From NCBI GenBank assembly GCA_025357055.1, contig JANXPZ010000125.1, positions 800 to 64,799 on the forward strand: a stretch of 64,000 nt of DNA, written 5' to 3'. The position numbers and the translations under genes were made by a program. Positions within the stretch are counted from its first letter, which is position 1; each line of letters opens with the position of its first letter. The stretch comes from Candidatus Eiseniibacteriota bacterium (GTDB taxonomy: Bacteria; Eisenbacteria; RBG-16-71-46). The notes beneath the pieces were generated by a model that was not told the DNA's origin, did not search any database, and worked only from the letters and a program-made list of their open reading frames with translations. Positions 3,458-46,853 of the stretch are shown piece after piece.

Positions 3458-3542
3458 AGCGGCGCCCGGCGGGCGCGCGGGCCCGTGCGGAGTCGGCTCC
3501 GGCCCGCGCCCGGAGGGGGTTCGCGCCTGCGGAGAGGTCGCC

Positions 3543-9493: not shown

Positions 9494-9497
9494 CGCC

Positions 9498-10628: not shown

Positions 10629-11089
10629 ACCTGGACGAAGATCTCGCCGGCGCGGACCGACACCGGGTAGCTGGGGAGCGGCCGGGGCGGCGGGCCGGAG
10701 AGCACGTTGCCCGAGAGGTCGAAGCGCCCGTCGTGGCAGGGGCAGACCAGCGTCCTGCGGGCCGGTTCGTAGCCCAGGATGCAGCGCACGTGCGTGCACA
10801 CCGCCGAGAGGGCCAGAACGCGCGTGGCGTCGAGCCGGACCACGTAGAAGGGCGTCACCCCGTGACGGACGAGGCGACCTTCGCCCACGCGGTAGTCGGC
10901 CAGGAGTCCGGCGCTCACGGTGCGCTCGGCCTCGCGCTTCTCGGGCGCCTTGAGATAGGCGCCCACCACGGCGGCGGCGCCGAGCCCCCAGAGCGCGAGG
11001 AAGGTCTGCGAGAGCACGGTGAGGAAACGGCGCCGGTCCGCAGGGCCGGACGCCGGCAGGTGGATCGGACGGTCTTCAGGGATCGGCAT
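10625..11089 (-). CDS. Rieske [2Fe-2S] protein with Tat signal, bc complex 2
   Basis: MPIPEDRPIHLPASGPADRRRFLTVLSQ (twin-arginine), CTHVRC...CPCHDG Rieske boxes; 154 aa. Confidence 0.85.
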   Translation of the reverse strand: MPIPEDRPIHLPASGPADRRRFLTVLSQTFLALWGLGAAAVVGAYLKAPEKREAERTVSAGLLADYRVGEGRLVRHGVTPFYVVRLDATRVLALSAVCTHVRCILGYEPARRTLVCPCHDGRFDLSGNVLSGPPPRPLPSYPVSVRAGEIFVQV

Positions 11090-26820: not shown

Positions 26821-27582
26821 CTAGAGCAGCTCCTTCAGCCGCGCGTGACCCGAGCGGCTCACGGGGATCTGCTTGCCATCCTGGAGCACGGCCACGTAAC
26901 TGTCCTTCGCATACAACTCGAGGCGCGCGAGCCGCTCGATGTTGAGCACGCAGGAGCGGTGGATCCGCACGAAGCGCGCGGGGTCGAGCCCGGCCGCGAC
27001 CTCGGCCAGGGGTTGCGGCTTGAGGTGGGTCCTGCCTCCGGCGCGGATGCCGACGTAGTCGTCCTGGGCCTCGATCCAGTCCACCTGGCCCACCGGGATG
27101 ACGTGCACGTTCGGACCGTCCTTGACGAGCAGGCGCTCGACGTACCGCCCGGGCGGGCGCGCCGCCGCGGCGAGCGTGGCGGGCGAAGGCGCGGGGGCGG
27201 CGACCGCGGCGCCGAGCCGCGCGCGGGCCTGCGCGAGCGCCTCGCCCAGCCGCTCGCGGGTGACGGGCTTCAGCACGTAGTCCACCGCGTGCACCTCGAA
27301 GGCCTTGAGCGCGTACTCGTCGTACGCGGTCACGAACACGACGGCGGGCGGCCGCTCGAGCAGGTCCAGCACCTCGAAGCCGTCGAGCTTGGGCATCTGG
27401 ATGTCCAGGAAGACGACGTCGGGGGCCCGCTCGCCGATGACCTTCACCGCGTCGAACCCGTTCGCGCATTCGCCCACGATCTCGATGCCGGAGTGCGCGG
27501 CGAGGTATTCGCGCAGCAAGCCGCGCGCGGGGGCCTCGTCGTCCACGATCACGACCCGCAGGGCGCCCGGATCAGGCGGCAT
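26821..27582 (-). CDS. LytTR-family response regulator (receiver + LytTR DNA-binding domain)
   Basis: ...VVIVDDE...DVVFLDIQMPKLDGFEV... receiver domain; C-terminal ...FVRIHRSCVLNIERL... LytTR motif. Confidence 0.85.
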   Translation of the reverse strand: MPPDPGALRVVIVDDEAPARGLLREYLAAHSGIEIVGECANGFDAVKVIGERAPDVVFLDIQMPKLDGFEVLDLLERPPAVVFVTAYDEYALKAFEVHAVDYVLKPVTRERLGEALAQARARLGAAVAAPAPSPATLAAAARPPGRYVERLLVKDGPNVHVIPVGQVDWIEAQDDYVGIRAGGRTHLKPQPLAEVAAGLDPARFVRIHRSCVLNIERLARLELYAKDSYVAVLQDGKQIPVSRSGHARLKELL

Positions 27583-28690
27583 GGTCTCCTCCCGTGCTGA
27601 CCGCCGGGGTCACGGATGGCCCCGGTCTCGTCCCTTCCACCGCGGGCAGGCTCAGCACCGCGCGGAAGCGCTCCGGCTCCTCGAAGACGTCGAGATGCGC
27701 CCGCCGCGGATCGAGCGCCGCGAGCCGCTGACGCACGTTCTCGAGCCCCAGGCCCACCCCGCGGCGGGGCGGGGCCGCGGAGTCCCGGGGATTCTCGACG
27801 CCGACCTCGAGCGTGTCACCCCTGCGGCGGGCCTCGATGAGCAGGGTGCCGCCTTCCACGCGGTCCGCCACGCCGTGCTTCACGGCGTTCTCGATGAGCG
27901 GCTGGATGAGCAGCGGGGGCACGAGACAGCCCAGCGTCCCGGGCTCGATCCTCCGTTCCACCAGGAGACGCGGCCCGAAACGCACCTGCTCGACCGCAAG
28001 GTAGCGTCCGGCCAGTGCCAGCTCCTCCTCGAGCGAGACGCGCTCGCGCCCGCCCAGGGAGAGGCTCGTGCGGAGGAAGTCGCCGAGCAATCCGCACATG
28101 TCGCGGGCGCCCTCGGGATCGGACCCGGCCAGGGCGCTGATCGAGTTGAGGCTGTTGAAGAGGAAGTGCGGGTTCAGCTGCGCCCGCAGGGCCCGCAACT
28201 CCGCCTCGCGCGCCGCGACCTGCGTCTGGAGCAGGCGGCGTTCGGCCTCGCGCGCGTTCTCGAAGGCGAGCACGAAGTAGTGCCCGACCAGCGACTGCCC
28301 GTAGAGCACGAGGCCCGCGACCCAGAGCAGCGTGAGGTCGCCCGCGAGGCCGTCGGGCCCCGGGCCGAGGTGGAAGCGCTTCGTGAGGAAGACATCCCAC
28401 ACGGCGCCGATCATGACCCAGGCGAGGCTCGCCTGGACCGCGGCGCCGGCCAGTCCCATGAACAGGCGCAGCGGGGGCGTGCGCTCGAGCGGGTGCGCGC
28501 GGCACACCCACCAGGCCGACAGGCACACGAACGCGTAGACCAGCGTGAGCGGCGCGGTGAACGCCAGCGCGGCCCCCGCGCTCGTCCGGGCGCCCAGCCC
28601 GCCGAGCACCGCGGTGAGCAGCGCGCAGATGCCCGCCCATCCGAGCAGGTAGAGGAGGATGCGCAGCCGGCCGCGGAGCAGGGGGTGCAT
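27572..28690 (-). CDS. LytS-type sensor histidine kinase (His_kinase 5TM-type)
   Basis: N-terminal TM helices; ...LRAQLNPHFLFNSLNSISAL... (PF06580 signature); HATPase_c region. Confidence 0.8.
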   Translation of the reverse strand: MHPLLRGRLRILLYLLGWAGICALLTAVLGGLGARTSAGAALAFTAPLTLVYAFVCLSAWWVCRAHPLERTPPLRLFMGLAGAAVQASLAWVMIGAVWDVFLTKRFHLGPGPDGLAGDLTLLWVAGLVLYGQSLVGHYFVLAFENAREAERRLLQTQVAAREAELRALRAQLNPHFLFNSLNSISALAGSDPEGARDMCGLLGDFLRTSLSLGGRERVSLEEELALAGRYLAVEQVRFGPRLLVERRIEPGTLGCLVPPLLIQPLIENAVKHGVADRVEGGTLLIEARRRGDTLEVGVENPRDSAAPPRRGVGLGLENVRQRLAALDPRRAHLDVFEEPERFRAVLSLPAVEGTRPGPSVTPAVSTGGDHAA

Positions 28691-28693
28691 GGG

Positions 28694-29407
28694 TCAGTTC
28701 TTGATCTCGACGCCGCCCATCAGGACGACGCCCTTCACGACGAGGTGGCCGCGGGTCTCGCCGGCGGGCGCGCGGGTGGCGTCCTCGATCCCGGCCATGA
28801 GCGGCAGCGCCTCGACGGTCACCTGCCAGTCCGCGGGCACGAACAGTTCCACGCCGCCCCACACCACCGTCACGTCGACGACCGCGCGGCCGCCGGGCAT
28901 CTTCGCCTGGCGCAGGTCGATCTCGGCGCCACCCATGATGGCGGTGGCGTCGCCGCCGCGGAAATCGAGGGACCCGACCTTGCGCTCGATGCCGGACCAC
29001 ATCACGAAAGTGCTGAACGTGGAATCGGTCTCCGCACCGGGCACGCCGGGTGCGACGGGTGCGTCGGCGCCGCGCGCGCGGCGCATCGCGCCGGCCACCA
29101 TCGAGCCGCCGACCACGACCAGCAGCACCGGCCAGAAGTCCCAGGGGTCGACCTGGATGAGATCGAACTCGTGCAGGAGCAGCAGGGCGCCCGCGAGGGT
29201 GAAGATGATGCCGGGCATCGTGCTCTGGCGGCAGTTGAGCCCGGTGAGCCGGCTCAGGCCGTACACCAGGAGCATGGCGGGCCACCAGCGCAGGATCTCA
29301 TCCGCCTGGAGCAGGCCCAGGTTGTCGAGCGTGAAGAGCACGCCGAGCGCGATGACGACGAACCCGAAGATGAGCCGCCCCGTGAGCGGGTAGCGGTGCT
29401 CAGGCAT
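28694..29407 (-). CDS. LiaF-like membrane protein (N-terminal TM segment + C-terminal DUF2154-like beta domain)
   Basis: TM N-terminus, then repetitive ...GGVEL.. beta-rich C-terminus (VVDVTVVWGGVELFVP..., VVKGVVLMGGVEIKN), resembling LiaF/YvqF cell-envelope stress modules. Confidence 0.5.
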   Translation of the reverse strand: MPEHRYPLTGRLIFGFVVIALGVLFTLDNLGLLQADEILRWWPAMLLVYGLSRLTGLNCRQSTMPGIIFTLAGALLLLHEFDLIQVDPWDFWPVLLVVVGGSMVAGAMRRARGADAPVAPGVPGAETDSTFSTFVMWSGIERKVGSLDFRGGDATAIMGGAEIDLRQAKMPGGRAVVDVTVVWGGVELFVPADWQVTVEALPLMAGIEDATRAPAGETRGHLVVKGVVLMGGVEIKN

Positions 29408-29690
29408 GACGCGCCCTCCTTTCCAGCCGTGCCCCGGATCGCAGCGCCAGCGCGACCAGGAGCAGCGCGGTCGCCGACGCGGCCAGCAGCGCGGGCCCGC
29501 CGGCGCGGCCCAGCAGCAGGGCGGCGCGCGCCAGAGCCCGCAGCACGACGAAGGTCTCCGGGAAACGGCCGATGAATCCGTTCACGAGCAGCACGAGGTT
29601 GACGGTCGCGAGCCACGCCAGCGCGGTGGCGAGCACGGCCGTCACCGCGATCCACAGTTGACGCTCGCGCAACCTGCCACGGTCAGTCAA
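29400..29690 (-). CDS. Small hydrophobic membrane protein
   Basis: 96 aa, three hydrophobic helices, overlaps its neighbours by a few nt (operon). Confidence 0.4.
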   Translation of the reverse strand: MTDRGRLRERQLWIAVTAVLATALAWLATVNLVLLVNGFIGRFPETFVVLRALARAALLLGRAGGPALLAASATALLLVALALRSGARLERRARHA

Positions 29691-30045
29691 GGCGCACCTC
29701 CGGGGTGCGGCGGCGGCGCTCCTCGCCCGTCAACGCCTTGACCACGATGCCCGCTCCCACCGCCACCAGCACGAGCGACCAGGAGTTGCCGTAGGTGAGG
29801 CCCCTCCAGCCGGACGTGACCGCGAGGAACCACGCGCCCAGCAGGATCATGGTCAGGGCCGAGCCCACGCGGCGCTCGATCAGGTGGGTGATGCCGATCA
29901 CGATCAGGATGAGGGGCCACCAATCCCCCATGCCGGCGATGCCCCAGATCCCGGAGCGCTCGACCAGGAACAGGATGCCGAGCGCGATGAGGAAGATGCC
30001 CCAGACCACCGTCTTCATGTTGCGGATGCCTTCGTCCTGCGTCAT
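29683..30045 (-). CDS. Small 4-TM membrane protein (LiaI/LiaF-TM-like)
   Basis: 120 aa; hydrophobic helices; first gene of the minus-strand operon ending with the LytS/LytTR pair. Confidence 0.5.
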   Translation of the reverse strand: MTQDEGIRNMKTVVWGIFLIALGILFLVERSGIWGIAGMGDWWPLILIVIGITHLIERRVGSALTMILLGAWFLAVTSGWRGLTYGNSWSLVLVAVGAGIVVKALTGEERRRRTPEVRLD

Positions 30046-30124
30046 CTCGGACCTCCTTCCGCCCGCCTTCGGGCTTCACCGGTAATCTACGGAAGAGACC
30101 CGGCCCGGGCATGGACTTTTCGGC

Positions 30125-30198
30125 GAGTGGCGGTCTGGCGACGGTGAGTGGCGGTGGGGCGACAACGAGTGCCGTGCGCGGGCGACCGTGAGTGGCGC
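30125..30198 (-). promoter_or_regulatory. Array of four imperfect direct repeats (GAGTGGCGG-like 9-mers) at 21-23 bp spacing upstream of the LytTR operon; candidate LytTR-regulator binding sites/promoter
   Basis: gagtggcgg (30125), gagtggcgg (30146), gagtgccgt (30167), gagtggcgc (30190); located 80-150 nt upstream of the 30045 start; LytTR regulators classically bind 9-bp direct repeats with about 21 bp periodicity. Confidence 0.35.
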
Positions 30199-30546
30199 AC
30201 GCGGGCGGTCCTTGCCTCCGCGTTGAAGAGCCCGCTTTGTGCCCACCTTGCGGGCGCTGACCTTCCCATGCCCACGCCCGGGCTGCTACCAGCGGATAAG
30301 CGCCGTTCGGTGGCATCATCCATCGAATGGAGTGAACTCACAGCACGGTCGCGGGTAGTAGACATCGGGTGGCAGGGTTTCGTGGCACCGCTCTTGCGGT
30401 CACGGAGCGATCCTCACGAAACGGCGATAACGCGCAGTCCCGGATCCACGACCCCCCGCATTTCGGCCGCGAGGAGTCGCAATTTGCAACCTGCAGACCC
30501 GGCCCACACCCCGAAGGATGGCAGGACCGTCGCGGTCGTCGCCGAT

Positions 30547-31401
30547 CGCGTGGTTCTGGCGTGCCTGCTGGCGCTCCCCCTCGCGATCACCCTGCGCTAC
30601 CTGCCCTACTACGCGCTGGGGGTCTCCGGCCGGGCGCGTCACACGCTGCACTCCCTGCTGGGCCCCTCCGGGCCGATCGGGATCTCCTTCGGGATCGCGG
30701 GCGCCGCGCTCTTCCTCTTCATGTGGTTCTACCCGCTGCGCAAGCGGTGGACCGCGCTCCGCCGGCTGGGGAATCCGGGCATCTGGCTCCAGGTGCACAT
30801 CCTCGCGGGCCTCGCGCTGCCGCTCGCCGTGGCCGTGCACTCGGGCTGGCGCTTCGCCGGGATCATCGGGCTCGGCTACGTCGCGATGACGCTCGTCGTC
30901 CTGAGCGGCGTCGTGGGACGCTACCTCTACAGTCACATCCCCCGCCGGCAGGACGGCGTCGAGCTTTCGCGCGAGGCGGTGGCGAACGAGCGGCGCGCCC
31001 TGCTCACGCGCATCGCCGCCGCCACGGGGCTCGATCCGACCGAGGTGGGGCGCACGCTCCACCCGGGGCCCGAGCGGGGCGCCAGCCGGGGCATCGCGGG
31101 CACCCTCGCCCGCCTGGTCATCGGCGACCTGGCCCGGCGCCGGGCGATCCGCGACCTCACCCGCCTCTGGTCGCGGCCGCGACCGGGGCACCCCGCACCC
31201 GACCCGCGCGCGCTGGCCGAGGCGGTGAGGCTCGCGCGCCGGGAGGTGGCCCTGGGGCAGCAGGTGCGGATGCTGGAGGCCACGCACCGCGTCTTCGCCT
31301 GGTGGCACGTGGCGCACCTGCCGGTGGCGATCACCGCCTTCCTGGCCATCCTCGTCCACGTCGGCGTCGCCGTGCTGGTCGGCGGCGTGATGCCGCGCTG
31401 A
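30547..31401 (+). CDS. His-rich polytopic membrane protein, candidate b-type cytochrome/ferric-reductase-like transmembrane component; start uncertain
   Basis: 5-6 TM helices with conserved His (HTLHSLLG, QVHILAGLALPLAVAVHSGW, WWHVAHLPVAITAFLAILVHVG); upstream part of the track ORF (30148-30540) looks non-coding, and GTG 30547 is one possible start. Confidence 0.45.
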   Translation, partial: RVVLACLLALPLAITLRYLPYYALGVSGRARHTLHSLLGPSGPIGISFGIAGAALFLFMWFYPLRKRWTALRRLGNPGIWLQVHILAGLALPLAVAVHSGWRFAGIIGLGYVAMTLVVLSGVVGRYLYSHIPRRQDGVELSREAVANERRALLTRIAAATGLDPTEVGRTLHPGPERGASRGIAGTLARLVIGDLARRRAIRDLTRLWSRPRPGHPAPDPRALAEAVRLARREVALGQQVRMLEATHRVFAWWHVAHLPVAITAFLAILVHVGVAVLVGGVMPR

Positions 31402-31405
31402 CGCC

Positions 31406-32893
31406 ATGAGCATGCTCCTCACCACGCTCGCCTTCGTCGCGCTGACGGCGCTCATCGCCTGGTGGCACGTGCGCGGCTCGGGCACCGTCGCGTCGGCTCG
31501 CGACCTGAGGCCGTGTCCGCGCTGCCGCACCCGCTTCGAAGCCGGCGCCTCGTTGTGTCCGGGCTGTGGCGTGCCGCGGCAGGCGTACGAGCTGGTGAGT
31601 GCCCCCGTCGTGGGGGCCGCGGCGCCGCTCGAGGCGGGCGTGAAGCCGCACCCCATCGTCCGCACCAACCTGTGCGTGGGCTGCGGCACCTGCGTGGCGG
31701 CCTGCCCCGAGCCCGGGGCGATCCGGCTGCAGGACCACCGCGCGTTCGTGGACCTCGACGTCTGTGTGCGGCACGGGACCTGCGCGGTGGCCTGCCCGAT
31801 GAACGCCATCGTGATGGCGGCGGGCGCGGCGGTGCAGCGCATCGAGGTGCCGGAGCTGGACGCGAACTTCCAGAGCAACGTGCCCGGGCTCTATGTGGTG
31901 GGCGAGTTGGGCGGGCGCGGGCTCATCAAGAACGCGATCAACGAGGGCCGCATCGCCATCGAGCACGTCGCCCGCGTGCTGGCGGCGGGCCGCCCGCTGC
32001 GGATGGGAGACGCCGGACCCGGGGGCGGTGAGCCGGACTCCCCCGGGCCCTACGACGTGCTCGTGGTGGGCTCGGGCCCCGCGGGGATCTCGGCCGCGCT
32101 CGAGGCGAAGCGCCTGGGGCTGCGCTGTGTCGTGATCGAGCAGGGCACGATCTCGGACACGATCCGCAAGTACCCGCGCCGCAAGCTCCTGCTCGCCGAG
32201 CCCTCGCGCGTCCAGCTCTACGGTGGATTGTGGGTGGCCGATGCCTCGAAGGAGGAGCTGCTGTCGGTGTGGGAGACGATCATCGCGCGCGCCGGCCTGC
32301 GCGTGCGGACCGGCGAGCGGGTCGAGTCGCTGGAGAGCGACGGTGTGCTGTTCCGCGTGCGCACCCCGGGGACCGAGTACCAGGCCCGCAAGGTGCTGCT
32401 GGCGATGGGCCGGCGCGGCACTCCGCGGCGGCTGGGCGTGCCGGGCGAGGAGCTGGAGAAGGCCCTCTATGACATCGTCGAGATGGAGGCGTTCGCGGGT
32501 TGCCGCATGCTGGTGGTGGGCGGCGGCGACAGCGCGATCGAATCGGCGCTCGGGCTCGCCAACCAGCCGGACACCTCGGTCACGCTCTCCTACCGCGGCC
32601 AGGAGTTCCCGCGGCTGAAGGAGCGCAACCGCGAGAAGCTCGAGGCCGCGCTCCAGGCCTCCGGCGAAGGCGGCGCGGGCCGCGTGGAACTGCTGCTCGG
32701 CAGCCGCGTGATCGAGATCCGCCCCGGCGTGGTGGCGCTCGACTGCGCGGGCATGCCCCGCCTGCTCCCCAACGACTACGTGGTCGTCCGCATCGGTGGC
32801 GAGCCGCCGTACCCGTTCATCGAGCGTTGCGGCGTGCGGATCGTGACCAAGGAGATCGCGATCGACACCGGTGCGGAAAGGCGGGCCGGGTGA
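31406..32893 (+). CDS. Membrane-anchored 2x[4Fe-4S] ferredoxin-domain + FAD/NAD(P)-binding (thioredoxin-reductase-like) oxidoreductase
   Basis: N-terminal TM helix; Zn-ribbon-like CPRC...CPGC; CVGCGTCVAACP and CVRHGTCAVACP ferredoxin motifs; DVLVVGSGPAGISAALEA (FAD GxGxxG) and MLVVGGGDSAIESALGLA (NAD(P)). Confidence 0.7.
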   Translation: MSMLLTTLAFVALTALIAWWHVRGSGTVASARDLRPCPRCRTRFEAGASLCPGCGVPRQAYELVSAPVVGAAAPLEAGVKPHPIVRTNLCVGCGTCVAACPEPGAIRLQDHRAFVDLDVCVRHGTCAVACPMNAIVMAAGAAVQRIEVPELDANFQSNVPGLYVVGELGGRGLIKNAINEGRIAIEHVARVLAAGRPLRMGDAGPGGGEPDSPGPYDVLVVGSGPAGISAALEAKRLGLRCVVIEQGTISDTIRKYPRRKLLLAEPSRVQLYGGLWVADASKEELLSVWETIIARAGLRVRTGERVESLESDGVLFRVRTPGTEYQARKVLLAMGRRGTPRRLGVPGEELEKALYDIVEMEAFAGCRMLVVGGGDSAIESALGLANQPDTSVTLSYRGQEFPRLKERNREKLEAALQASGEGGAGRVELLLGSRVIEIRPGVVALDCAGMPRLLPNDYVVVRIGGEPPYPFIERCGVRIVTKEIAIDTGAERRAG

Positions 32894-34683
32894 GGGCGGC
32901 GCTCCCCCCCATTCTGATCATGCTCTCGCTCTCCGTCGCCCTTCCCGCCCGCGCGCAACTGTCACCGGGGCCGCTCAGCGAGGCGCACCGCTCGCTCGAG
33001 GGCGTGACCCAGTGCTTCCAGTGCCACGAGAGCGGCGCGGGGGCCGCGGACGCCAAGTGTCTCGCCTGCCACACCGAGATCGGCTGGCTGCGCGCCCGGA
33101 GCCGCGGGCTCCACGGCCCCGGGCAGTCCACGCCCTGCGTGAAGTGCCATCCCGAGCACGCGGGAGTCGCCTTCCAGCTGGTGCGCTGGGACGAGGGGGC
33201 CGCCGAGCGGTTCGACCACCGGCGCGCGGGGTTCGTACTCGAGGGCCGGCACGGGAAGCTCAAGTGCGCCGAGTGCCATCAGCCGCGCTTCCAGAAGTCG
33301 GGCGCCGCCGCGCTCATCCGCAAGCGTGACCGCGCCGCGAGCTGGCTCGGGCTCGAGCGCTCGTGCACCTCGTGCCACGCGGACCCCCACCAGGGCCAGC
33401 TCGGCGCCACCTGCACGGATTGCCACGGGCCACAGGCGTGGAAGCCCGCGACCGGCTTCGACCACGCGAAGACCGCCTACCCGCTCACCGGTCTGCACGC
33501 GAAGCTCGAGTGCGCGAAGTGCCACCTGTCCCCGCGGCTCGAGCCCGTGACCGACGCACAGGGGAAGCTCGTGCCACGCTGGAAGCCGCTCCCCCACGCC
33601 GACTGCGCCTCCTGCCACAAGGACCCGCATGCCGGGCGCTTCCCGGGCGCCTGCGCGAAGTGCCACACGACGGAGGGCTTCCGGGTGCTCGACGCGAAGA
33701 ACTTCGACCACGAGCGCACGCGCTACCCGCTGCGCGGCCGCCACGCCACGGTCGCCTGTGCGAAGTGCCACGATCCGAAACTGGCCCGGGGGCTCAAGCC
33801 CGCCTTCGACCGCTGCGACCGCTGCCATCGCGACGCCCACGCCGGGCTCGCCACGCTGGCCGGCCGGCCCGCCGACTGCGCCGCCTGCCACGCGGTGCAG
33901 GGCTGGAGGCCTTCGACCTACAGCGTGAGCGCGCACCAGTCCGCGGCCTATCCGCTCGAGGGGCGCCACGCCCTGGTGCCCTGCGCGAAGTGTCATCCGC
34001 AGGGGGCGGACTCGCTCGCCGCCAGGCTGGGCAGCGCCCGCGTGCAGCTGCGGCCCGCCCGTGCGCGCTGCCTCGACTGCCACACCGACCCGCACCGCGG
34101 CCGCTTCGAGGCGGGCGGCGCCCGGGCCAAGGCCACGAGCTGCAGGACCTGTCACACGCTGGACGGCTTCCGGCCCACCCTGGTGGACGCCGCCGCGCAC
34201 GCGCGACTGGGCTACCCGCTGAAGGGCGCGCACCGGGCCGTGCCCTGCCAGGGTTGCCACGCCGAATTGAAGGTCGCACCGCCCGCGGCCGGCGCAACGG
34301 TCCCGGCCGGCGCCAGCGGCGGGGGCCCCGCCGCGAGCAGCCCGGGGCGCACGCTCCTCTTCGCCGATGCGGGCTCCGCCTGTGACGGTTGTCACACGTC
34401 TCCGCACGGCGACCAGTTCAAGGGCCGCCGCGCCCGGGTGAAGGGTGGCCCGGCGGGCGATGCCTGTGACGCCTGCCACGGGATCGAGAGCTTCACGCCC
34501 GCGAATCGTTTCGATCACGAGAAGGACTCGGCGTTCCGGCTCTCCGGAGCGCACGCGAAAGTCAGGTGCGAGGGCTGTCACAAGTCCTCGCGGGATGCGC
34601 AGGGCCGGTCGTTCGTGGTCTACAAGCCCACGCCCGCCCGGTGCGAGGACTGCCATGTCCACCGGCCGCAGGGGGCGTCATGA
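32890..34683 (+). CDS. 20-heme c-type cytochrome (repeated CXXCH...H modules)
   Basis: GTG start overlapping the upstream stop (GTGA) gives a signal peptide VRAALPPILIMLSLSVALPARA; 20 CXXCH with recurring F(D)H...YPL.G.H spacing motifs. Confidence 0.75.
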   Translation: MRAALPPILIMLSLSVALPARAQLSPGPLSEAHRSLEGVTQCFQCHESGAGAADAKCLACHTEIGWLRARSRGLHGPGQSTPCVKCHPEHAGVAFQLVRWDEGAAERFDHRRAGFVLEGRHGKLKCAECHQPRFQKSGAAALIRKRDRAASWLGLERSCTSCHADPHQGQLGATCTDCHGPQAWKPATGFDHAKTAYPLTGLHAKLECAKCHLSPRLEPVTDAQGKLVPRWKPLPHADCASCHKDPHAGRFPGACAKCHTTEGFRVLDAKNFDHERTRYPLRGRHATVACAKCHDPKLARGLKPAFDRCDRCHRDAHAGLATLAGRPADCAACHAVQGWRPSTYSVSAHQSAAYPLEGRHALVPCAKCHPQGADSLAARLGSARVQLRPARARCLDCHTDPHRGRFEAGGARAKATSCRTCHTLDGFRPTLVDAAAHARLGYPLKGAHRAVPCQGCHAELKVAPPAAGATVPAGASGGGPAASSPGRTLLFADAGSACDGCHTSPHGDQFKGRRARVKGGPAGDACDACHGIESFTPANRFDHEKDSAFRLSGAHAKVRCEGCHKSSRDAQGRSFVVYKPTPARCEDCHVHRPQGAS

Positions 34684-34723
34684 GGAAGGAACGCACGAGA
34701 TCCATCCAGTCGGAAGGCTGGTC

Positions 34724-36166
34724 ATGAAGCGCCCCGGCCTGCCGCTGCGGATCGGGGGCATGCGCCTTGCGGCGACGCTGCTGACGGTGCTTCCACTCGC
34801 CGCGCTCGGACTGGTCGCCTTCGCGGCCGAGAAGCCCGCCGCGGTGGAGCCCGAGTACCCGCACGGGAACTTCCAGGGCGACTGCTCGGAGTGCCACGGC
34901 GACGAGGGGTGGAAGCCGGCGCGCATCAGCCGGAAGTTCGACCACGCGAAGCGCTCGGGATTCGCCCTGAACGGGGCGCACGCCTCGCTCCAGTGCGCGG
35001 GCTGTCACGGCACGCTCGACTTCAGCCAGCAGCGCAAGGTCTGCGCCTCGTGCCACCAGGACCCGCACCTCGGCGAGTTCGGGCCCGACTGCGCCCGTTG
35101 CCACACCCCGCGCAGCTTCCTCGACCGCGCGGGCATGGTGCGCATGCACCAGTTGACGCGTTTTCCGCTGGCGGGCGCGCACGCGGGGCTGGATTGCGAG
35201 GGCTGCCACCGCCTGACGTCCCAGGGGCAGCTGCGCTTCAGCTCGACCGGGACGGAGTGCTACTCGTGTCACCGGGAGGACTTCGTGGGCACGACGAGCC
35301 CCGCGCACGTCGCCGGCGGCTTTCCGACCGATTGCATGAACTGCCACACGCCGCTGGCCTGGCGGCCCACGCGCTTCGTCCACACGGGCGCCACGGAATG
35401 CTACTCGTGCCACCGGTCCAACTACGAGCGCACGACGGCCCCGGCCCACGTCGCGGCGGGCTTCCCGACCGCCTGCGCGACCTGCCACACGACCCGGAGC
35501 TGGCTGCCCTCGACGTTCGACCACGCCGCCACGCCGTTCGCGCTGACCGGGGCGCACGTCCAGACGCCGTGCGTGAGCTGCCACGGGAGTCCCTGGCAGA
35601 ACACGCTGGCCACCGACTGCTACTCGTGCCACCGGCCGGCCTACGACGCGACGGCCGCCCCGGCGCACGTCACGGGCGGGATCCCGACCACCTGCACGAG
35701 CTGCCATACCACCGTGGCCTGGCAGCCCGCGACCTTCGCCCACAACGCCACGGCGTTCCCGCTGACCGGGGCGCACGTCCAGACGCCGTGCGTGAGCTGC
35801 CACGGGAGTCCCTGGCAGAACACGCTGGCCACCGACTGCTATTCGTGCCACCGCCCGGCCTACGACGCGACCACGGACCCCGCCCATGCCGCCGCGGGAT
35901 TCCCGACCACCTGCGCCACCTGTCACAGCACGAGCGCGTGGACCGGGGCGACGTTCGACCACACCTGGTTCCCGATCACCTCCGGCCGACATTCGGGGCT
36001 CACATGCTCGACCTGCCACGTCGTCCCCACGAGCTATGCCTCGTTCAGCTGCCTGAGCGGCTGTCATTCGCAGGGCGACACGGATGGCCGCCATTCCAAC
36101 GTCTCCGGCTACCGGTACGACAGCGCCTCCTGCTATTCGTGCCACCCACGCGGGTCGGCCGGTTGA
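34724..36166 (+). CDS. 17-heme c-type cytochrome with an internally repeated 73-aa module
   Basis: GGAAGG RBS 9 nt upstream of the ATG; signal/anchor MKRPGLPLRIGGMRLAATLLTVLPLAALGLVAFA; about 17 CXXCH; repeated unit PAHV.GG.PT.C..CHTT..W.P.TF.H.AT.F.LTGAHVQTPCVSCHGSPWQNTLATDCYSCHRPAYDAT. Confidence 0.8.
   Translation: MKRPGLPLRIGGMRLAATLLTVLPLAALGLVAFAAEKPAAVEPEYPHGNFQGDCSECHGDEGWKPARISRKFDHAKRSGFALNGAHASLQCAGCHGTLDFSQQRKVCASCHQDPHLGEFGPDCARCHTPRSFLDRAGMVRMHQLTRFPLAGAHAGLDCEGCHRLTSQGQLRFSSTGTECYSCHREDFVGTTSPAHVAGGFPTDCMNCHTPLAWRPTRFVHTGATECYSCHRSNYERTTAPAHVAAGFPTACATCHTTRSWLPSTFDHAATPFALTGAHVQTPCVSCHGSPWQNTLATDCYSCHRPAYDATAAPAHVTGGIPTTCTSCHTTVAWQPATFAHNATAFPLTGAHVQTPCVSCHGSPWQNTLATDCYSCHRPAYDATTDPAHAAAGFPTTCATCHSTSAWTGATFDHTWFPITSGRHSGLTCSTCHVVPTSYASFSCLSGCHSQGDTDGRHSNVSGYRYDSASCYSCHPRGSAG
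35531..35872 (+). repeat. Tandem 219-bp-period duplication inside the 17-heme cytochrome gene with a homogenised core of about 111 bp (2 mismatches)
   Basis: 35552-35652 and 35761-35871 are near-identical (81 bp identical, then 2 mismatches in 30); the flanking parts of each repeat unit are diverged. Confidence 0.85.
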
Positions 36167-37875
36167 GCGCGCGCCGCAGGCGGAGTCCGTCACGGCCGCT
36201 CCATCCCGCGGGGGCCGGCCCCGCGCTGACGCTGGCCGCTGCGCTCGTCGTGCTGCTGGTGGCCTGCGGCTCCGCGGCGCAGGCCGCGCAGGTGGAAGCC
36301 CACGTCACCTACCTCGCCGGCGGATCGGTCTACGTGGACGCCGGGCGTCTGGAGGGTCTGCGCGAGGGCGACTCGCTGGTCGTGGTGCGAGGTGGAAAGA
36401 CCATCGCCTGGCTGCGGGCCTCGTTCCTCTCCTCTCACCGGACCTCGTGCGACACCCTGGGCACGCTCGCGCCCATCCGGGTGGGCGACCTGGCGGGCTT
36501 CGTCACGAATGTCCCCGGGCCCTCCGCTGCGGGAGGTGACACCACCGCCGCGGTGACCGGCGCCCCGCCGGCGACTGCGTCTCCCGCTCCCGGCGCGCCC
36601 GCGCCCCACCCGGTTCCGGGTGTGCCCTTGAGTGGCGCCACGCCTGCGGCCCCACCGCCACGTGCCGCGCGGCGCGGCGGGGCGTTGCGCGGACGCATCG
36701 GGGCGCGCTTCCTCACCGTACAGACCGACCACGGTGGCCGCCTCACGCAGCCGGCGCTCGACCTGCGGCTCGACGGCGTGAGCCTGGCGGGGACGCCGCT
36801 CGACCTGGCCGTGGACTTCCGGGGGCGCCGCGTCACCCAGAGCATTCCCGGGCGGGTCACGCTGAACACCGATCGCGGCCTGTTCTACCGTTTCGCGCTC
36901 GCCACTCACGACCTGGCCGGGCACTACCGGTTCACGGTCGGGCGGCAGCTCTCGCCCTCGCTCGCGCCCGTGAACCTGTTCGACGGCGCGCTGGTCGAGC
37001 GCCGCGGCACGCGCTGGAACGCCGGTCTCTTCAGCGGCGCGCAGCCCGAGCCCATGCGGCTCGGCATGTCGGGTGCGATCGTGCAGGGCGGCGGGTACCT
37101 CGAGTGGCACCAGTCGGCGGGCGCGGCGCGGCGCTGGACCGTCAGCGGCGGCGCCATCAGTTCGTACGACCACGGCAACACCAACCGCGATTTCGGCTTC
37201 CTGCAGGGCTTCTACCTGGACCGCACGCTGAGCGCGACGCTCTCGCAGGAGGTGGACCTGAACCGGGGCTGGAAGCGCGATCTGGGTCAGCCTGCGTTCC
37301 AGGCGACCGGCACGTTCCTCACCACGAACGTGCGGGTCGGCTCCGCGCTCTCCCTGCGTGGCGGCTACGACAACCGGCGCAACGTCTGGCTCTATCGCGA
37401 CCGCATCACGCCCGAGAACCTGTTCGACGACCGTTACCGGCAGGGAGGCTGGGGCGGCGCGTTGCTCGATCTGGCACACCACGTCCGGCTCACGGGGGAC
37501 GCGCGCACCAGCTCGATCGCCGGGGCGCGGCGCCAGAACGGCTGGACCGGCGGCCTCGAGGGCTATCGCTTCACCCCGCTCAACCTCGCGTTGCGCGCGC
37601 GCTACAGCCGGCTCACGGGCAGTGGCCTGGAGAACTCACTGGTCTCGTACGGGGCCGGCCTCGATCCGCTGGGTTGGGCGCACGTCGAAGTGACCGGGGG
37701 GCAGCGCACCACCCGGGAGGCGCTGGCCGGGGTCCAGGAACGCTCGCAGTGGCTCGGCGCCGACCTCGACCTGACGCTGCCGGGCCGCGCCTACCTGAAC
37801 GTCTCGTACGAGGGGGATTCCGGTGGCATCAGCCCGATGCGACAGGCCTACTTCGGACTGAGCTGGAGGTTCTGA
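36163..37875 (+). CDS. Outer-membrane beta-barrel protein (porin-like), possibly a lipoprotein; start tentative
   Basis: TTG start overlapping the cytochrome stop (TTGA) gives RRRR + hydrophobic + LVAC (lipobox-like) / AQA signal; Pro/Ala-rich linker; long alternating amphipathic region ending ...AYFGLSWRF (terminal aromatic typical of OM barrels). Confidence 0.55.
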   Translation: MSARRRRSPSRPLHPAGAGPALTLAAALVVLLVACGSAAQAAQVEAHVTYLAGGSVYVDAGRLEGLREGDSLVVVRGGKTIAWLRASFLSSHRTSCDTLGTLAPIRVGDLAGFVTNVPGPSAAGGDTTAAVTGAPPATASPAPGAPAPHPVPGVPLSGATPAAPPPRAARRGGALRGRIGARFLTVQTDHGGRLTQPALDLRLDGVSLAGTPLDLAVDFRGRRVTQSIPGRVTLNTDRGLFYRFALATHDLAGHYRFTVGRQLSPSLAPVNLFDGALVERRGTRWNAGLFSGAQPEPMRLGMSGAIVQGGGYLEWHQSAGAARRWTVSGGAISSYDHGNTNRDFGFLQGFYLDRTLSATLSQEVDLNRGWKRDLGQPAFQATGTFLTTNVRVGSALSLRGGYDNRRNVWLYRDRITPENLFDDRYRQGGWGGALLDLAHHVRLTGDARTSSIAGARRQNGWTGGLEGYRFTPLNLALRARYSRLTGSGLENSLVSYGAGLDPLGWAHVEVTGGQRTTREALAGVQERSQWLGADLDLTLPGRAYLNVSYEGDSGGISPMRQAYFGLSWRF

Positions 37876-42816: not shown

Positions 42817-43084
42817 TGGCGGACGTCCTTCTCGGGGTGTTGGGTTCGGATCCCGCACAAGTCCCGGCCGTGGGGCGAACTGGCCCGGGATTCCTGGCGC
42901 CCCACCCCGGGGCACCAGAGCGCGTGTATTGCTCACGCAGGGCAATCTTCGCACCGCCCCGCGCGCGAGTCCACCCGGCCACCGGGTCCGGCGCGGAGGG
43001 CCCGGCGCGCCGGCCTTCACCCGCCCGCGACGACGACGGGGGCGGGTGAAGGCCGCCCCCGTCGCCGACTACGGTCCGGGACGA

Positions 43085-46633: not shown

Positions 46634-46853
46634 GTGGGGCCTCCGAGTCGTGGGGGGACGACGCGGCCGCACGTCCATTCAACCAGTCCCTGCGGATAGG
46701 AATCGCCTATCCAGGCGCGGACCCTAGCACGGTGAAGTCGGGCCGGACAATGAATATTTGACCGGTCCTGTGCTCAAACGTGACGAGTGGATCGCTGGCC
46801 CATCGCCACCCCCCGGGGCGGGAGTCTCCCCGGCCGATTTCAGCCGTCCGGTC

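What the first reader, a model, noticed from the sequence alone, without database searches (positions are those of the whole stretch)
30547..37875. Candidate trans-envelope multiheme electron conduit: His-rich membrane protein + FeS-flavoprotein + 20-heme + 17-heme cytochromes + outer-membrane beta-barrel
Five co-directional genes are linked by overlapping stop/start codons (GTGA at 32890, TTGA at 36163) or short RBS-containing gaps. They form a redox path in a plausible topological order from the cytoplasm/inner membrane to the outer membrane. (1) A membrane protein with conserved intramembrane His pairs could ligate b-hemes. (2) A membrane-anchored protein combines two [4Fe-4S] ferredoxin domains with FAD and NAD(P) Rossmann motifs, so it could accept electrons from a pyridine nucleotide or carry electrons between Fe-S and flavin. 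(3,4) Two exported cytochromes carry 37 heme-binding sites in total. (5) A roughly 570-aa protein has a signal/lipobox-like N-terminus and ends in an aromatic residue, as OM barrels do. This composition differs from the known Mtr (MtrCAB) and Geobacter Pcc porin-cytochrome systems. Those lack a dedicated flavo-FeS entry module and use 10-12-heme cytochromes. I did not recognise this arrangement as a described system.
Basis: partly seen in the sequence, partly recalled or inferred. Interest (0 to 1): 0.85.

Follow-up and report, generated by a model that had tools for sequence, protein, structure and literature searches.

The report
Multiheme electron conduit with flavoprotein entry
Five co-transcribed genes encode what looks like a wire of about 37 hemes running from an inner-membrane cytochrome-b-like protein, paired with a cytoplasmic NAD(P)H/FAD/iron-sulfur protein, out to an outer-membrane barrel; this is a variant of the predicted but untested "PCC3" porin-cytochrome systems, and no paper found describes the flavoprotein partner.

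Summary
Five + strand genes (30484-37875) encode:
- g1, a 5-TM membrane protein;
- g2, a membrane-anchored 2x[4Fe-4S]/FAD/NAD(P) protein;
- g3 and g4, exported cytochromes with 20 and 17 CXXCH sites;
- g5, a 570-aa protein modelled as a 22-strand beta-barrel.

The gene set is strongly syntenic. I found it in about 30 genome loci (Eisenbacteria, Acidobacteriota), in dozens of metagenome loci, and on a plasmid of the cultured Bacteroidota Emticicia oligotrophica.

It is not an undescribed kind. He et al. 2017 predicted "PCC3": a porin, a periplasmic ~21-heme cytochrome, an extracellular cytochrome with a variable heme count, and a ~300-aa inner-membrane protein with SGXXG and two WX3HX13H motifs. 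g1 carries exactly those motifs. The remaining genes match in composition, but homology to PCC3 proteins was not tested.

The new part is g2, a ferredoxin fused to a thioredoxin-reductase-like flavoprotein. It stays linked to the cluster even where gene order is shuffled. An Alteromonas plasmid pairs the same membrane-protein family with a non-homologous FNR-type NAD/FAD/2Fe-2S protein. That supports a split, NOX-like logic: NAD(P)H - FAD - FeS - two b hemes - c hemes.

Direction (outward favoured) and function are untested. Verdict: a new variant of a known, unverified kind; moderately high interest.

The parts
30046..30483 (.). Intergenic region between the divergent LiaF-like gene (29683-30045, - strand) and g1. 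Presumed promoter/leader, with the Shine-Dalgarno GAGGAG at 30471-30476.
   Evidence: No sigma-70 consensus was found, so the promoter is not located.
30484..31401 (+). g1: 305-aa inner-membrane protein of the PCC3/PCC4 'IMP' type, with 5 TM helices. Motifs: W101-x3-H105-x13-H119 (TM3), S141-G-x-x-G145 (TM4), W274-x3-H278-x13-H292 (TM5). A ~120-aa helical domain, inferred cytoplasmic, lies between TM4 and TM5. Candidate di-heme b transmembrane electron carrier.
   Evidence: Start and length. TM segments. Invariant His, Gly and Trp in 30 close and 85 distant homologs. AF2 pLDDT 84. No solved-structure match. Recurrent sub-threshold Pfam hits to DUF4405, Ferric_reduct and Ni_hydr_CYTB. Motif definition: PMC5566968.
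31406..32893 (+). g2: 495-aa membrane-anchored cytoplasmic redox protein. In order along the chain:
- N-terminal TM helix (1-22);
- CPRC...CPGCG motif (37-54);
- 2x[4Fe-4S] ferredoxin domain (C90/93/96/100; C120, H123, C126, C130);
- a FAD motif of the C-terminal type (GELGGRG, ~167-173) placed ahead of the Rossmann GxGxxG (222-227);
- NAD(P) site GGGDSA (372-377).
The flavoprotein domain is of the thioredoxin-reductase / YpdA / TrxR-like-FNR type.
   Evidence: Pfam Pyr_redox_3 (8e-38) and Fer4_10. NCBIfam YpdA 148.8 bits, below the 339.9 cutoff. PDB 7a76/7a7b (YpdA/Bdr) and TrxR-like FNRs; residues 138-189 align to the late FAD motif of P64K. Motif conservation in 32 homologs. Emticicia homolog alignment.
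32890..34683 (+). g3: 597-aa exported cytochrome c with 20 CXXCH sites (30 aa per heme). It is built of c7-type triheme repeats of about 82 aa and has a Sec signal peptide (…ALPARA|QL). Candidate periplasm-spanning heme wire. The heme number is nearly constant in relatives (20 or 23).
   Evidence: motif positions. (Cytochrome_C7 84.5 bits, 5 stretches). (heme counts in relatives).
34724..36166 (+). g4: 480-aa exported cytochrome c with 17 CXXCH sites plus one CX3CH. It has a Sec signal peptide and no lipobox. This is the variable member of the cluster: 12 to 68 hemes in relatives, or absent. Candidate distal or extracellular heme wire.
   Evidence: Variability. Copies with only g4+g5.
35390..35931 (+). 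219-bp (73-aa, three-heme) tandem repeat inside g4, 2.5 copies, 84% matches. Tandem duplication of this module is a likely way the heme number changes.
36163..37875 (+). g5: 570-aa outer-membrane protein. It has a signal peptide, a small conserved beta domain (43-114), a disordered Pro/Ala-rich linker (117-171), a 22-strand beta-barrel (176-569) and a C-terminal Phe. Candidate sheath for a cytochrome across the outer membrane.

Best explanation
The five genes encode one trans-envelope electron conduit of the PCC3 type, with an added cytoplasmic entry module.

Proposed parts and positions:
- g2 sits on the cytoplasmic face, held by one TM helix. It exchanges electrons with NAD(P)(H) at a thioredoxin-reductase-like FAD site and passes them through two [4Fe-4S] clusters, one of them His-ligated.
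- g1 is a 5-TM protein that binds two b hemes. One lies near each membrane face: H105+H278 on the inner side and H119+H292 on the outer side. It carries electrons across the inner membrane, as the membrane domain of NADPH oxidases and ferric reductases does.
- g3, with 20 c hemes in triheme c7-type repeats, bridges the periplasm.
- g4, with 17 hemes here and 12-68 in relatives, extends the wire through or beyond the g5 barrel to the cell surface.

Most likely direction: outward. NAD(P)H would be oxidised without passing through the quinone pool, and the electrons would be dumped on extracellular Fe(III)/Mn(IV) minerals, humics or partner cells. Membrane potential would assist this flow rather than be built by it.

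What is shown: gene structure, cofactor motifs, barrel prediction, conserved linkage.
What is inferred: heme b binding, subunit contacts, localisation of g4, the nucleotide used, direction, and the physiological acceptor.

My confidence that this is an envelope-spanning electron conduit using g1+g2 at the inner membrane is about 0.7. My confidence that it runs outward from NAD(P)H is about 0.45.
For: 1. Operon structure with overlapping or near-abutting genes.
2. Cofactor sites. g3 has 20 and g4 has 17 CXXCH with c7-type domains. g2 has a Fer4 dicluster, FAD GxGxxG and GGGDSA motifs, all conserved in 32 homologs. Its closest solved relatives are the NADPH-dependent YpdA/Bdr and TrxR-like ferredoxin-NADP reductases.
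3. g1 has two H-x13-H pairs on TM3 and TM5 at matching membrane depths. They are invariant in 30 close and 85 distant homologs, as is SGxxG. Recurrent weak hits go to three di-heme-b/FRD families: DUF4405 46/85, Ferric_reduct 25/85, Ni_hydr_CYTB 19/85.
4. Topology fits. g2 has no Tat motif and has positive residues after its TM helix. g1's KR-rich loops and its 120-aa domain fall on the same (cytoplasmic) side (inference).
5. g5 is modelled as a 22-strand barrel. The Leptothrix cholodnii PCC3 porin has the same predicted strand number.
6. Linkage.
   - About 30 genome loci carry g1-g2-g3-(g4)-g5.
   - In metagenome loci, g2 directly follows g1 in 45 of 60.
   - In 10 more, g2 is still in the cluster but relocated, after g5 or divergent upstream.
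   - A multiheme cytochrome gene is present in 36/36 loci with room for it, and g5 in 14/14.
   - The full set is on Emticicia oligotrophica plasmid pEMTOL02, next to ccsA.
7. Independent analogue. Alteromonas macleodii pAM1A3 has a g1-family protein (100.8 bits against the family HMM). It is flanked by a membrane-anchored FAD_binding_6 + NAD_binding_1 + Fer2 protein and a 7-heme cytochrome. This is a non-homologous NAD(P)H-FAD-FeS module in the same position.
8. Thermodynamics (established knowledge). NAD(P)H at -320 mV to hemes and Fe(III)/humics is downhill. Outward electron movement is aided by an inside-negative potential.
9. He et al. 2017 independently proposed that the PCC3/PCC4 membrane protein binds two b hemes and relays electrons.
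Against: - There are no experimental data for this cluster or for PCC3, which its authors call functionally unverified.
- g1 has no significant match to any Pfam family or solved structure. Heme b binding therefore rests on motifs and sub-threshold hits.
- PCC3 was proposed for Fe(II) oxidation, with electrons entering the quinone pool. That is the opposite direction and a different partner.
- About 5 of 60 related loci show no g2 in the available DNA, and proteobacterial PCC3 has none, so g2 is not obligatory for the conduit.
- g4 has no lipobox, and its surface exposure is unproven.
- Loci with g3+g5 only and loci with g4+g5 only both exist. Which cytochrome enters the barrel is therefore unresolved.
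- The Alteromonas analogue sits beside [NiFe]-hydrogenase genes, which would fit inward flow.
- The same window carries a separate set of cytochromes with likely quinone links. It includes an 18-heme cytochrome with a NapC/NirT-type N-terminus, an NrfD-like protein and two cytochrome b genes. These could be the usual inner-membrane entry point.
Confidence: 0.6

Rival explanations
1. Electron uptake, as proposed for PCC3. The conduit oxidises extracellular Fe(II), Mn(II), reduced humics or a partner cell. Electrons run inward through g4/g3 to g1, which reduces quinone. g2 is an accessory branch, for example delivering some electrons to a cytoplasmic acceptor or poising the b hemes.
For: - g1 matches the motif definition of the PCC3/PCC4 membrane protein.
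- The cluster composition matches PCC3, which is found in Fe(II) oxidisers and was modelled as donor -> quinone.
- The PCC3 inner-membrane gene was upregulated in iron-oxidising Sideroxydans CL21 cells.
- Emticicia is, as far as I recall, an aerobe, so it could use such electrons for respiration.
- The Alteromonas analogue lies next to hydrogenase genes.
- Inward electron flow would build membrane potential.
Against: - A conserved NAD(P)-binding flavoprotein wired by FeS clusters to the membrane protein has no obvious role if electrons stop at quinone.
- Reducing NAD(P)+ (-320 mV) from Fe(II) or humics, against the membrane potential, is strongly uphill (established thermodynamics).
- No quinone-site motif was identified in g1.
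- None of the Eisenbacteria or Acidobacteriota records that carry the cluster was identified here as a known Fe(II) oxidiser.
Confidence: 0.2
2. A surface or periplasmic reductase, or an electron buffer, rather than a respiratory conduit. Possible roles: reductive iron acquisition (like eukaryotic FRE), detoxification of metals, metalloids or oxidants, or a heme 'capacitor' that stores electrons during acceptor shortage.
For: - The logic is NOX/FRE-like.
- The cluster occurs in Emticicia, which as far as I recall is an aerobic oligotroph, on a plasmid next to an ECF sigma factor and cytochrome c biogenesis genes.
- g3 gives weak NCBIfam hits to selenite/tellurite-operon proteins ExtN and ExtO, far below cutoff.
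- Large heme numbers have been suggested to act as capacitors.
Against: - Building 37-90 hemes is a costly way to acquire iron.
- The ExtN/ExtO scores are about 19 bits against a cutoff of 200.
- No catalytic (non-CXXCH) active-site motif was seen in g3 or g4.
- The constant ~20-heme protein plus a barrel points to distance-spanning transfer.
Confidence: 0.12
3. The adjacency is coincidental, or g1/g2 belong to a different process than the g3-g5 porin-cytochrome genes.
For: - Copies with only g4+g5 exist without g1-g3 (L006, L007, L040, L051).
- Proteobacterial PCC3 lacks g2.
- The flavoprotein domain of g2 occurs in unrelated contexts, for example a Pseudoalteromonas glycosyltransferase cluster.
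Against: - g1, g2 and a ~20-heme cytochrome co-occur in every sufficiently long locus of the close family.
- They also co-occur in loci only ~30-37% identical to the window (L066, Emticicia).
- g2 stays in the cluster even when gene order changes.
- The genes overlap by 4 nt or abut.
Confidence: 0.03

Closest known systems
PCC3 porin-cytochrome c gene cluster (He et al. 2017, Front Microbiol 8:1584, PMC5566968; Sideroxydans, Leptothrix and other Proteobacteria). Bioinformatic prediction, function unverified.
   Same: - An outer-membrane barrel. The L. cholodnii porin is predicted with 22 strands, as g5 is modelled.
- A periplasmic cytochrome with about 21-27 hemes, built of ~66-aa repeats giving three hemes each (24 hemes/8 repeats, 21/7) and a low aa:heme ratio. 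g3 has 20 hemes (23 in relatives), 30 aa per heme.
- A second cytochrome whose heme number varies widely: 10-85 in PCC3, 12-68 here.
- A ~300-aa 5-TM inner-membrane protein with SGXXG on TM4 and WX3HX13H on TM3 and TM5. g1 has all three motifs.
   Different: - PCC3 is a four-gene set without any FeS-flavoprotein. Here g2 is linked to the cluster in at least 55 of 60 related loci.
- The transcription order given for Sideroxydans CL21 differs (extracellular cytochrome, porin, periplasmic cytochrome, membrane protein).
- The hosts are Eisenbacteria, Acidobacteriota and Bacteroidota, not Proteobacteria.
- PCC3 was modelled as Fe(II) oxidation feeding the quinone pool.
- Direct sequence homology to PCC3 proteins could not be tested, because no reference sequences were available.
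MtrCAB / MtoAB / PioAB porin-cytochrome complexes (Shewanella, Sideroxydans, Rhodopseudomonas; structure 6R2Q)
   Different: - No sequence relation of g5 to MtrB: no hit in Pfam or NCBIfam, nor with the family profile against PDB sequences.
- 22 strands against 26.
- 20- and 17-heme c7-type repeat proteins instead of decahemes. g4 scores 33.9 bits against a cutoff of 192.2 for the DmsE/MtrA family.
- Mtr receives electrons from quinol via CymA. This cluster has its own b-type membrane protein and flavoprotein.
NADPH oxidase / ferric reductase (NOX, FRE; FRD membrane domain PF01794 + FAD + NADPH domains)
   Same: The proposed electron path has the same logic: cytoplasmic NAD(P)H -> FAD -> two b hemes held by H-x13-H pairs on TM3 and TM5 -> acceptor on the other side of the membrane. 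Members of the g1 family give recurrent weak Ferric_reduct hits.
   Different: - The parts are split over two polypeptides.
- g1 has 5 TM helices, not 6.
- The flavoprotein is TrxR/YpdA-type, not FNR-type, and two [4Fe-4S] clusters are interposed.
- All Ferric_reduct hits are below Pfam's threshold.
- The Alteromonas analogue does use FNR-type FAD_binding_6/NAD_binding_1 domains.
Hmc / Tmc transmembrane redox complexes of sulfate reducers (periplasmic multiheme cytochrome + membrane cytochrome b + cytoplasmic FeS protein)
   Same: Three-compartment layout: a multiheme c cytochrome outside, a b-type membrane subunit, and an FeS protein inside. Quinone is not necessarily involved.
   Different: - Not homologous at family level: g4 scores 39 bits against a cutoff of 400 for HmcA.
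- The Hmc/Tmc cytoplasmic subunits are HdrD-like, without FAD/NAD(P).
- They have no outer-membrane barrel.
- Their electron flow is inward, to sulfate reduction.
c7-type polymer 'nanowire' cytochromes of Geobacter (e.g. dodecaheme GSU1996)
   Same: g3 and g4 are chains of triheme c7-type modules (Pfam Cytochrome_C7 84.5 and 63.3 bits).
   Different: The chains here are longer (20 and 17 hemes). They are encoded together with a barrel and an inner-membrane module. No close sequence relative has a solved structure.
YpdA/Bdr bacillithiol-disulfide reductase and TrxR-like ferredoxin-NADP+ reductases (PDB 7A76, 7A7B, 2ZBW, 3AB1)
   Same: The flavoprotein domain of g2 (218-484) aligns to them at E 1e-26 to 1e-29 for YpdA/Bdr and 1e-12 to 1e-16 for 2ZBW and 3AB1. 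Like them, it has no conserved redox-active CxxC in the flavoprotein domain.
   Different: - g2 is membrane-anchored and fused to a ferredoxin domain.
- The late FAD-binding motif appears to have moved to the N-terminal side of the Rossmann motif.
- The NCBIfam score is 148.8 against a cutoff of 339.9, so g2 is not an equivalog.

Membership tests
PCC3 (He et al. 2017) | Inner-membrane protein of about 300 aa with five TM helices, SGXXG on TM4 and WX3HX13H on both TM3 and TM5 | tested here: met
   g1 is 305 aa with 5 hydrophobic segments. Motifs: W101x3H105x13H119, S141GVVG145, W274x3H278x13H292. The His, and S141/G142/G145 of SGxxG, are invariant among 30 close homologs. The four ligand His, W274 and the two SGxxG glycines are invariant among 85 distant ones; W101 and S141 are nearly so. 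Definition.
PCC3 (He et al. 2017) | Outer-membrane beta-barrel (porin) gene in the cluster | tested here: met
PCC3 (He et al. 2017) | Periplasmic multiheme cytochrome with about 21 (21-27) hemes, internal repeats, low aa:heme ratio | tested here: met
   g3 has 20 CXXCH, 30 aa per heme, triheme repeats and a Sec signal. Relatives have 20 or 23. The periplasmic location itself is inferred.
PCC3 (He et al. 2017) | Second, extracellular multiheme cytochrome with a highly variable heme number | tested here: inconclusive
   The variability is met: 12-68 hemes or absent, and there is a tandem three-heme repeat. Extracellular location cannot be shown from sequence, and g4 has no lipobox.
PCC3 (He et al. 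2017) | Sequence homology to the reference PCC3 proteins of Sideroxydans/Leptothrix | not tested
   No reference sequences were obtainable.
PCC3 (He et al. 2017) | Four-gene composition with no further redox protein | tested here: not met
   g2 (FeS-flavoprotein) lies between g1 and g3. It is linked in at least 55 of 60 related loci. I therefore file the cluster as a variant, not as plain PCC3.
MtrCAB / MtoAB / PioAB | MtrB/PioB-family 26-strand porin and MtrA/DmsE-family decaheme cytochrome | tested here: not met
   g5 gives no Pfam or NCBIfam hit, and its family profile does not hit MtrB among PDB sequences. TIGR03508 (DmsE family) scores 33.9 bits on g4 against a cutoff of 192.2. The model has 22 strands.
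Geobacter Pcc (OmaB/OmbB/OmcB, Ext clusters) | Homology to the OmbB-type porin, the 8-heme periplasmic cytochrome and the 12-heme lipoprotein cytochrome | not tested
   No reference sequences were available. The heme numbers (20 and 17) and the absence of a lipobox on g4 do not fit. ExtN/ExtO NCBIfam models score about 19 bits against a cutoff of 200.
Ferric reductase / NOX transmembrane domain (Pfam PF01794) | Match to the FRD profile above the gathering score; six TM helices with bis-His pairs on TM3 and TM5 | tested here: inconclusive
   No hit for g1 itself. Sub-threshold hits occur in 12/30 close and 25/85 distant homologs, best E 1.5e-4. The His spacing and helix positions match, but g1 has 5 TM helices and fold searches found nothing.
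YpdA family bacillithiol-disulfide reductase (TIGR04018) | Score above the equivalog cutoff | tested here: not met
   148.8 bits against a cutoff of 339.9. The fold-level relation is supported by PDB hits 7a76 and 7a7b.
2x[4Fe-4S] bacterial ferredoxin domain | Two CxxCxxCxxxCP motifs | tested here: met
   Fer4_10, Fer4_7 and Fer4 score above their cutoffs. The first motif is canonical. The second is CxxHxxCxxxCP, with the His conserved as far as Emticicia.
Cytochrome c7-type multiheme domain (PF14522) | Pfam match above the gathering score | tested here: met
   g3 84.5 bits and g4 63.3 bits, against a cutoff of 24.8.
Hmc complex (HmcA, NF045713) | Score above the equivalog cutoff | tested here: not met
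   g4 scores 39.2 bits against a cutoff of 400.

The most novel reading that the evidence does not exclude
The g1+g2 pair is a bacterial 'split NADPH-oxidase'. It would be a quinone-independent inner-membrane module that feeds electrons from cytoplasmic NAD(P)H, via FAD, two FeS clusters and two b hemes, straight into a two-membrane-spanning multiheme wire. This would be the first pyridine-nucleotide-coupled extracellular electron transfer conduit in diderm bacteria. It would be widespread in the little-studied phyla Eisenbacteria and Acidobacteriota and in some Bacteroidota. It would also be evolutionarily modular, because Alteromonas plugs an unrelated FNR-type NAD(P)H-FAD-2Fe2S protein into the same membrane protein.
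Probability: 0.35. Interest if true: 0.8.

Novelty: new variant of a known kind. Interest (0 to 1): 0.62.

Why it matters
All characterised extracellular electron transfer routes of Gram-negative bacteria take electrons from the quinone pool (CymA; ImcH/CbcL). A conduit wired directly to NAD(P)H would be a different solution. It would regenerate NAD(P)+ without respiratory complexes, which would help fermenters and oligotrophs dispose of reducing power on minerals or humic matter.

The cluster is common in Eisenbacteria and Acidobacteriota from soils, sediments and wastewater, so it bears on carbon and iron cycling by uncultured majority phyla.

[quoted passage not shown] That protein was predicted in 2017 and, in the literature searched here, has not been characterised since.

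Finally, the full cluster sits on a plasmid of a cultured bacterium, Emticicia oligotrophica DSM 17448. Genetics and biochemistry are therefore feasible now.

Tried and rejected
1. Exact look-up of g2 in public assemblies found nothing. g1 was found only on short Logan contigs.
3. Apparent natural g1-g2 fusion proteins (P0263, P0251) looked like Rosetta-stone evidence. They contain long Arg/Pro/Gly-rich stretches typical of out-of-frame translation of high-GC DNA, so I judged them frameshift artefacts and discarded them.
4. The peat 'EET1-4' clusters of Acidobacteriota and Verrucomicrobiota (bioRxiv 10.64898/2026.05.27.727921) turned out to be different systems, with 8-13-heme Mtr/Omc-like proteins.
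5. Papers mentioning Eisenbacteria together with multiheme cytochromes say nothing about this cluster. Searches on Emticicia, HX13H, PCC4 and flavoprotein terms found no follow-up work.
6. A Pseudoalteromonas plasmid hit to g2 lies in a glycosyltransferase cluster and is unrelated.
7. I considered the CPxC...CPxCG motif of g2 as an extra redox centre next to the membrane. It is absent from the Emticicia homolog, so it is not essential to the path.
9. Cluster-member look-up of distant g1 relatives gave no organism names.

Full report
**What is in the sequence**

The window is about 72% G+C. Between 30484 and 37875 five + strand genes are packed head to tail.

- g1 (30484-31401) most likely starts at TTG 30484, 7 nt after GAGGAG. 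This matches the 305-aa product found identically in public assemblies.
- g2 (31406-32893) starts 4 nt after the g1 stop.
- g3 (32890-34683) starts with a GTG that overlaps the g2 stop (GTGA).
- g4 starts at ATG 34724 after GGAAGG and ends at 36166.
- g5 (36163-37875) starts with a TTG that overlaps the g4 stop (TTGA).

The neighbours lie on the opposite strand. Upstream are LiaF-like membrane proteins and a LytTR two-component pair. Downstream is an ABC-2 transporter. These neighbours are not conserved in relatives, so the unit is bounded by g1 and g5. No sigma-70-like promoter or terminator was detected.

**The proteins**

g3 has 20 CXXCH motifs in 597 aa. g4 has 17, plus one CX3CH, in 480 aa. 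Both have Sec signal peptides and consist of c7-type triheme modules (Pfam Cytochrome_C7 84.5 and 63.3 bits). Neither has a close relative with a solved structure. g4 contains a 219-bp tandem repeat, which is one three-heme module, in 2.5 copies.

g2 has the following parts, in order:
- an N-terminal TM helix followed by basic residues;
- a CPRC...CPGCG motif;
- one 2x[4Fe-4S] ferredoxin domain whose second motif is CxxHxxCxxxCP;
- a thioredoxin-reductase-type flavoprotein domain with GxGxxG and GGGDSA motifs.

Its closest solved relatives are the NADPH-dependent YpdA/Bdr enzymes and TrxR-like ferredoxin-NADP+ reductases. It scores well below the YpdA equivalog cutoff. The flavoprotein domain has no conserved redox-active cysteine pair. 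A conserved GELGGRGLIKNA segment lies ahead of the Rossmann motif and aligns to the late FAD motif of a dihydrolipoamide-dehydrogenase-like protein. This suggests a permuted fold.

g5 has no Pfam, NCBIfam or PDB sequence match. With 30 homologs as its alignment, AlphaFold2 models it as follows:
- a small beta domain (43-114);
- a disordered Pro/Ala linker;
- a 22-strand barrel (176-569), mostly at pLDDT 84-92.

g1 has five hydrophobic helices and a ~120-aa helical insert between TM4 and TM5. Five histidines are invariant among 30 homologs: H105 and H119 on TM3, and H275, H278 and H292 on TM5. S141, G142 and G145 are invariant too.

**Is the cluster conserved?**

Yes, strongly.

- Homologs of g5 number more than 230 and are all annotated 'hypothetical'.
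- A scan of one genome per species found 58 loci. They are mostly Candidatus Eisenbacteria, with some Acidobacteriota and one Gemmatimonadales. The best match (77% over g5) is an Eisenbacteria chromosome, so the window is probably from that phylum.
- Wherever enough upstream DNA exists, the order g1-g2-g3-(g4)-g5 recurs, in about 30 loci.
- The g3-type protein nearly always has 20 or 23 hemes. The g4-type has 12 to 68, or is absent.
- Some genomes carry a second copy with only g4+g5.
- A scan of metagenomes with the g1 profile gave 80 more loci:
  - g2 directly follows g1 in 45 of 60 loci with room.
  - In 10 more it is still in the cluster but has moved: after g5 in 4, divergent upstream in 6.
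  - In 5 it was not seen.
  - A multiheme cytochrome is present in 36 of 36 loci with room, and g5 in 14 of 14.
  - Linkage that survives rearrangement argues for a shared function.
- The g1 family is large: 3310 clusters at 50% identity with E <= 1e-3.
- A member only 36% identical to g1 (over the aligned segment) sits in the same kind of cluster (L066).

The full five-gene set also lies on plasmid pEMTOL02 of the cultured Bacteroidota Emticicia oligotrophica DSM 17448, next to ccsA:

| Emticicia product | Relation to the window |
|---|---|
| 281-aa membrane protein | all g1 motifs present |
| 440-aa NAD(P)-binding protein | 37% identical to g2 |
| 23-heme cytochrome | g3-like |
| 40-heme cytochrome | g4-like |
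| 538-aa hypothetical protein | related to g5 (E 8e-11), sharing its N-terminal domain and the DNRRNV motif |

**What is known**

He et al. 2017 (PMC5566968) predicted 'PCC3' in Sideroxydans, Leptothrix and other Proteobacteria. Its parts are:
- a porin (22 predicted strands in L. cholodnii);
- a periplasmic cytochrome with a median of 21 hemes, built of ~66-aa repeats (8 repeats for 24 hemes, 7 for 21, so three hemes each);
- an extracellular cytochrome with 10-85 hemes;
- a ~300-aa inner-membrane protein with five TM helices, SGXXG on TM4 and WX3HX13H on TM3 and TM5.

They proposed that this protein binds two b hemes, like ferric reductase domains. g1 has exactly these motifs: W101x3H105x13H119, S141GVVG145 and W274x3H278x13H292. 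In 85 distant family members the four ligand histidines, the TM5 tryptophan and the two glycines of SGxxG are still invariant; the TM3 tryptophan and the serine are nearly so.

PCC3 is still described as functionally unverified. As described, it has four genes and no FeS-flavoprotein. The same paper lists porin-less clusters of a cytochrome, such a membrane protein and an unnamed 'other redox protein'. I found no paper that describes the g2 partner or this cluster in Eisenbacteria, Acidobacteriota or Bacteroidota.

**Evidence on mechanism**

g1 matches no Pfam family above threshold and no solved fold. Its relatives do give recurrent weak hits to three families of di-heme membrane cytochromes:

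| Pfam family | Hits among 85 distant relatives | Hits among 30 close relatives |
|---|---|---|
| DUF4405 | 46 | 11 |
| Ferric_reduct | 25 | 12 |
| Ni_hydr_CYTB | 19 | 6 |

As I recall, these three families belong to one Pfam clan.

By the positive-inside rule, TM3 and TM5 both run from inside to outside. That places H105 and H278 at one depth and H119 and H292 at the other, which is the geometry needed for two stacked b hemes (inference).

g2 has no Tat motif, and its cofactor domains should be cytoplasmic.

Independent support comes from Alteromonas macleodii plasmid pAM1A3. There, a g1-family protein (100.8 bits against the family HMM, both Hx13H pairs, SGFVG) is flanked by two genes. One encodes a membrane-anchored protein with FAD_binding_6, NAD_binding_1 and 2Fe-2S domains. 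The other encodes a 7-heme cytochrome. A non-homologous NAD(P)H-FAD-FeS module thus occupies the same place. This fits a split NOX-like chain: NAD(P)H - FAD - FeS - heme b - heme b - c hemes.

**Direction**

Outward flow from NAD(P)H (-320 mV) to hemes and Fe(III)/Mn(IV)/humics is downhill and is helped by the membrane potential. Inward flow from Fe(II) or humics to NAD(P)+ would be uphill and would run against the potential.

I therefore favour outward, quinone-independent disposal of reducing power. Three observations keep uptake open:
- the original PCC3 hypothesis of Fe(II) oxidation;
- the hydrogenase genes next to the Alteromonas analogue;
- the aerobic lifestyle of Emticicia (as far as I recall).

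It is also unresolved which cytochrome enters the barrel. Loci with g3+g5 only and loci with g4+g5 only both exist.

**Verdict**

Its claim of an undescribed system is only partly right. This is a variant of the predicted PCC3 class in new phyla, distinguished by a conserved FeS-flavoprotein that suggests direct coupling to pyridine nucleotides. Nothing is experimentally shown. A cultured host makes it testable.

Noticed in passing
window 45-11075: A second, separate cytochrome cluster. It holds two full-length cytochrome b genes (45-1322 +, 9498-11075 -), an NrfD-like membrane protein (3543-4871 -), an 8-heme cytochrome (5521-6309 -), an 18-heme cytochrome with a NapC/NirT-type N-terminus (6455-8272 -) and a 9-heme cytochrome (8273-9652 -). 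The NapC/NirT, NrfD and cytochrome b families usually act on quinones, so this may be a quinone-linked electron module that feeds the same periplasmic heme network.
   Followed up: partly
window 35390-35931: A 219-bp tandem repeat (2.5 copies, 84% matches) inside g4, equal to one three-heme module. It is a likely source of the 12-68 range in heme number among relatives.
   Followed up: partly
L070 (Emticicia oligotrophica plasmid pEMTOL02, NC_018749.1 78197-89995): The whole five-gene cluster lies on a 100-kb plasmid of a cultured Bacteroidota, directly after ccsA. Nearby are an ECF-type sigma factor, a Rieske protein, YceI, a DUF5777 barrel and a c-type cytochrome. Plasmid carriage hints at horizontal spread.
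   Followed up: partly
L152 (Alteromonas macleodii plasmid pAM1A3, NZ_CP012203.1 ~63150-67869): A g1-family membrane protein sits between a membrane-anchored FNR-type FAD/NAD/2Fe-2S protein and a 7-heme cytochrome, followed by a 407-aa hypothetical protein that looks polytopic. The group lies next to [NiFe]-hydrogenase structural and maturation genes. Its relation to hydrogen metabolism is unexplained.
   Followed up: partly
L006, L007, L040, L051 (Eisenbacteria/Acidobacteriota MAGs): Extra copies with only a 12-13-heme g4-like cytochrome plus a g5-like barrel, without g1-g3. They resemble a minimal MtoAB/PioAB-style pair. Two genomes carry both a full and a minimal copy.
   Followed up: partly
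L099, L103, L128, L131; L116, L126, L134, L140, L144, L147: Rearranged versions of the cluster. g2 sits after g5 in the first four loci, and divergently upstream of g1 in the other six. L087 appears to lack g2 within 8 kb on either side of g1.
   Followed up: no
public proteins P0263, P0251: Database 'fusion' proteins joining g1 and g2 contain long Arg/Pro/Gly-rich stretches and look like frameshift or gene-calling artefacts of high-GC assemblies.
   Followed up: yes
window 26821-30045 (- strand): A LytTR response regulator, a His_kinase-family sensor and three LiaF/LiaI-like membrane proteins lie immediately upstream of the cluster and divergent from it. They are not conserved next to the cluster in the closest relative, so a regulatory link is doubtful.
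   Followed up: no
window 40184-42982 (- strand): A 932-aa secreted protein with a PPC domain. A PPC-domain protein of similar size (882 aa) sits downstream of the cluster in the closest Eisenbacteria genome. Next to it is a 1197-aa FG-GAP/FlgD-Ig repeat protein (43085-46678 -).
   Followed up: no
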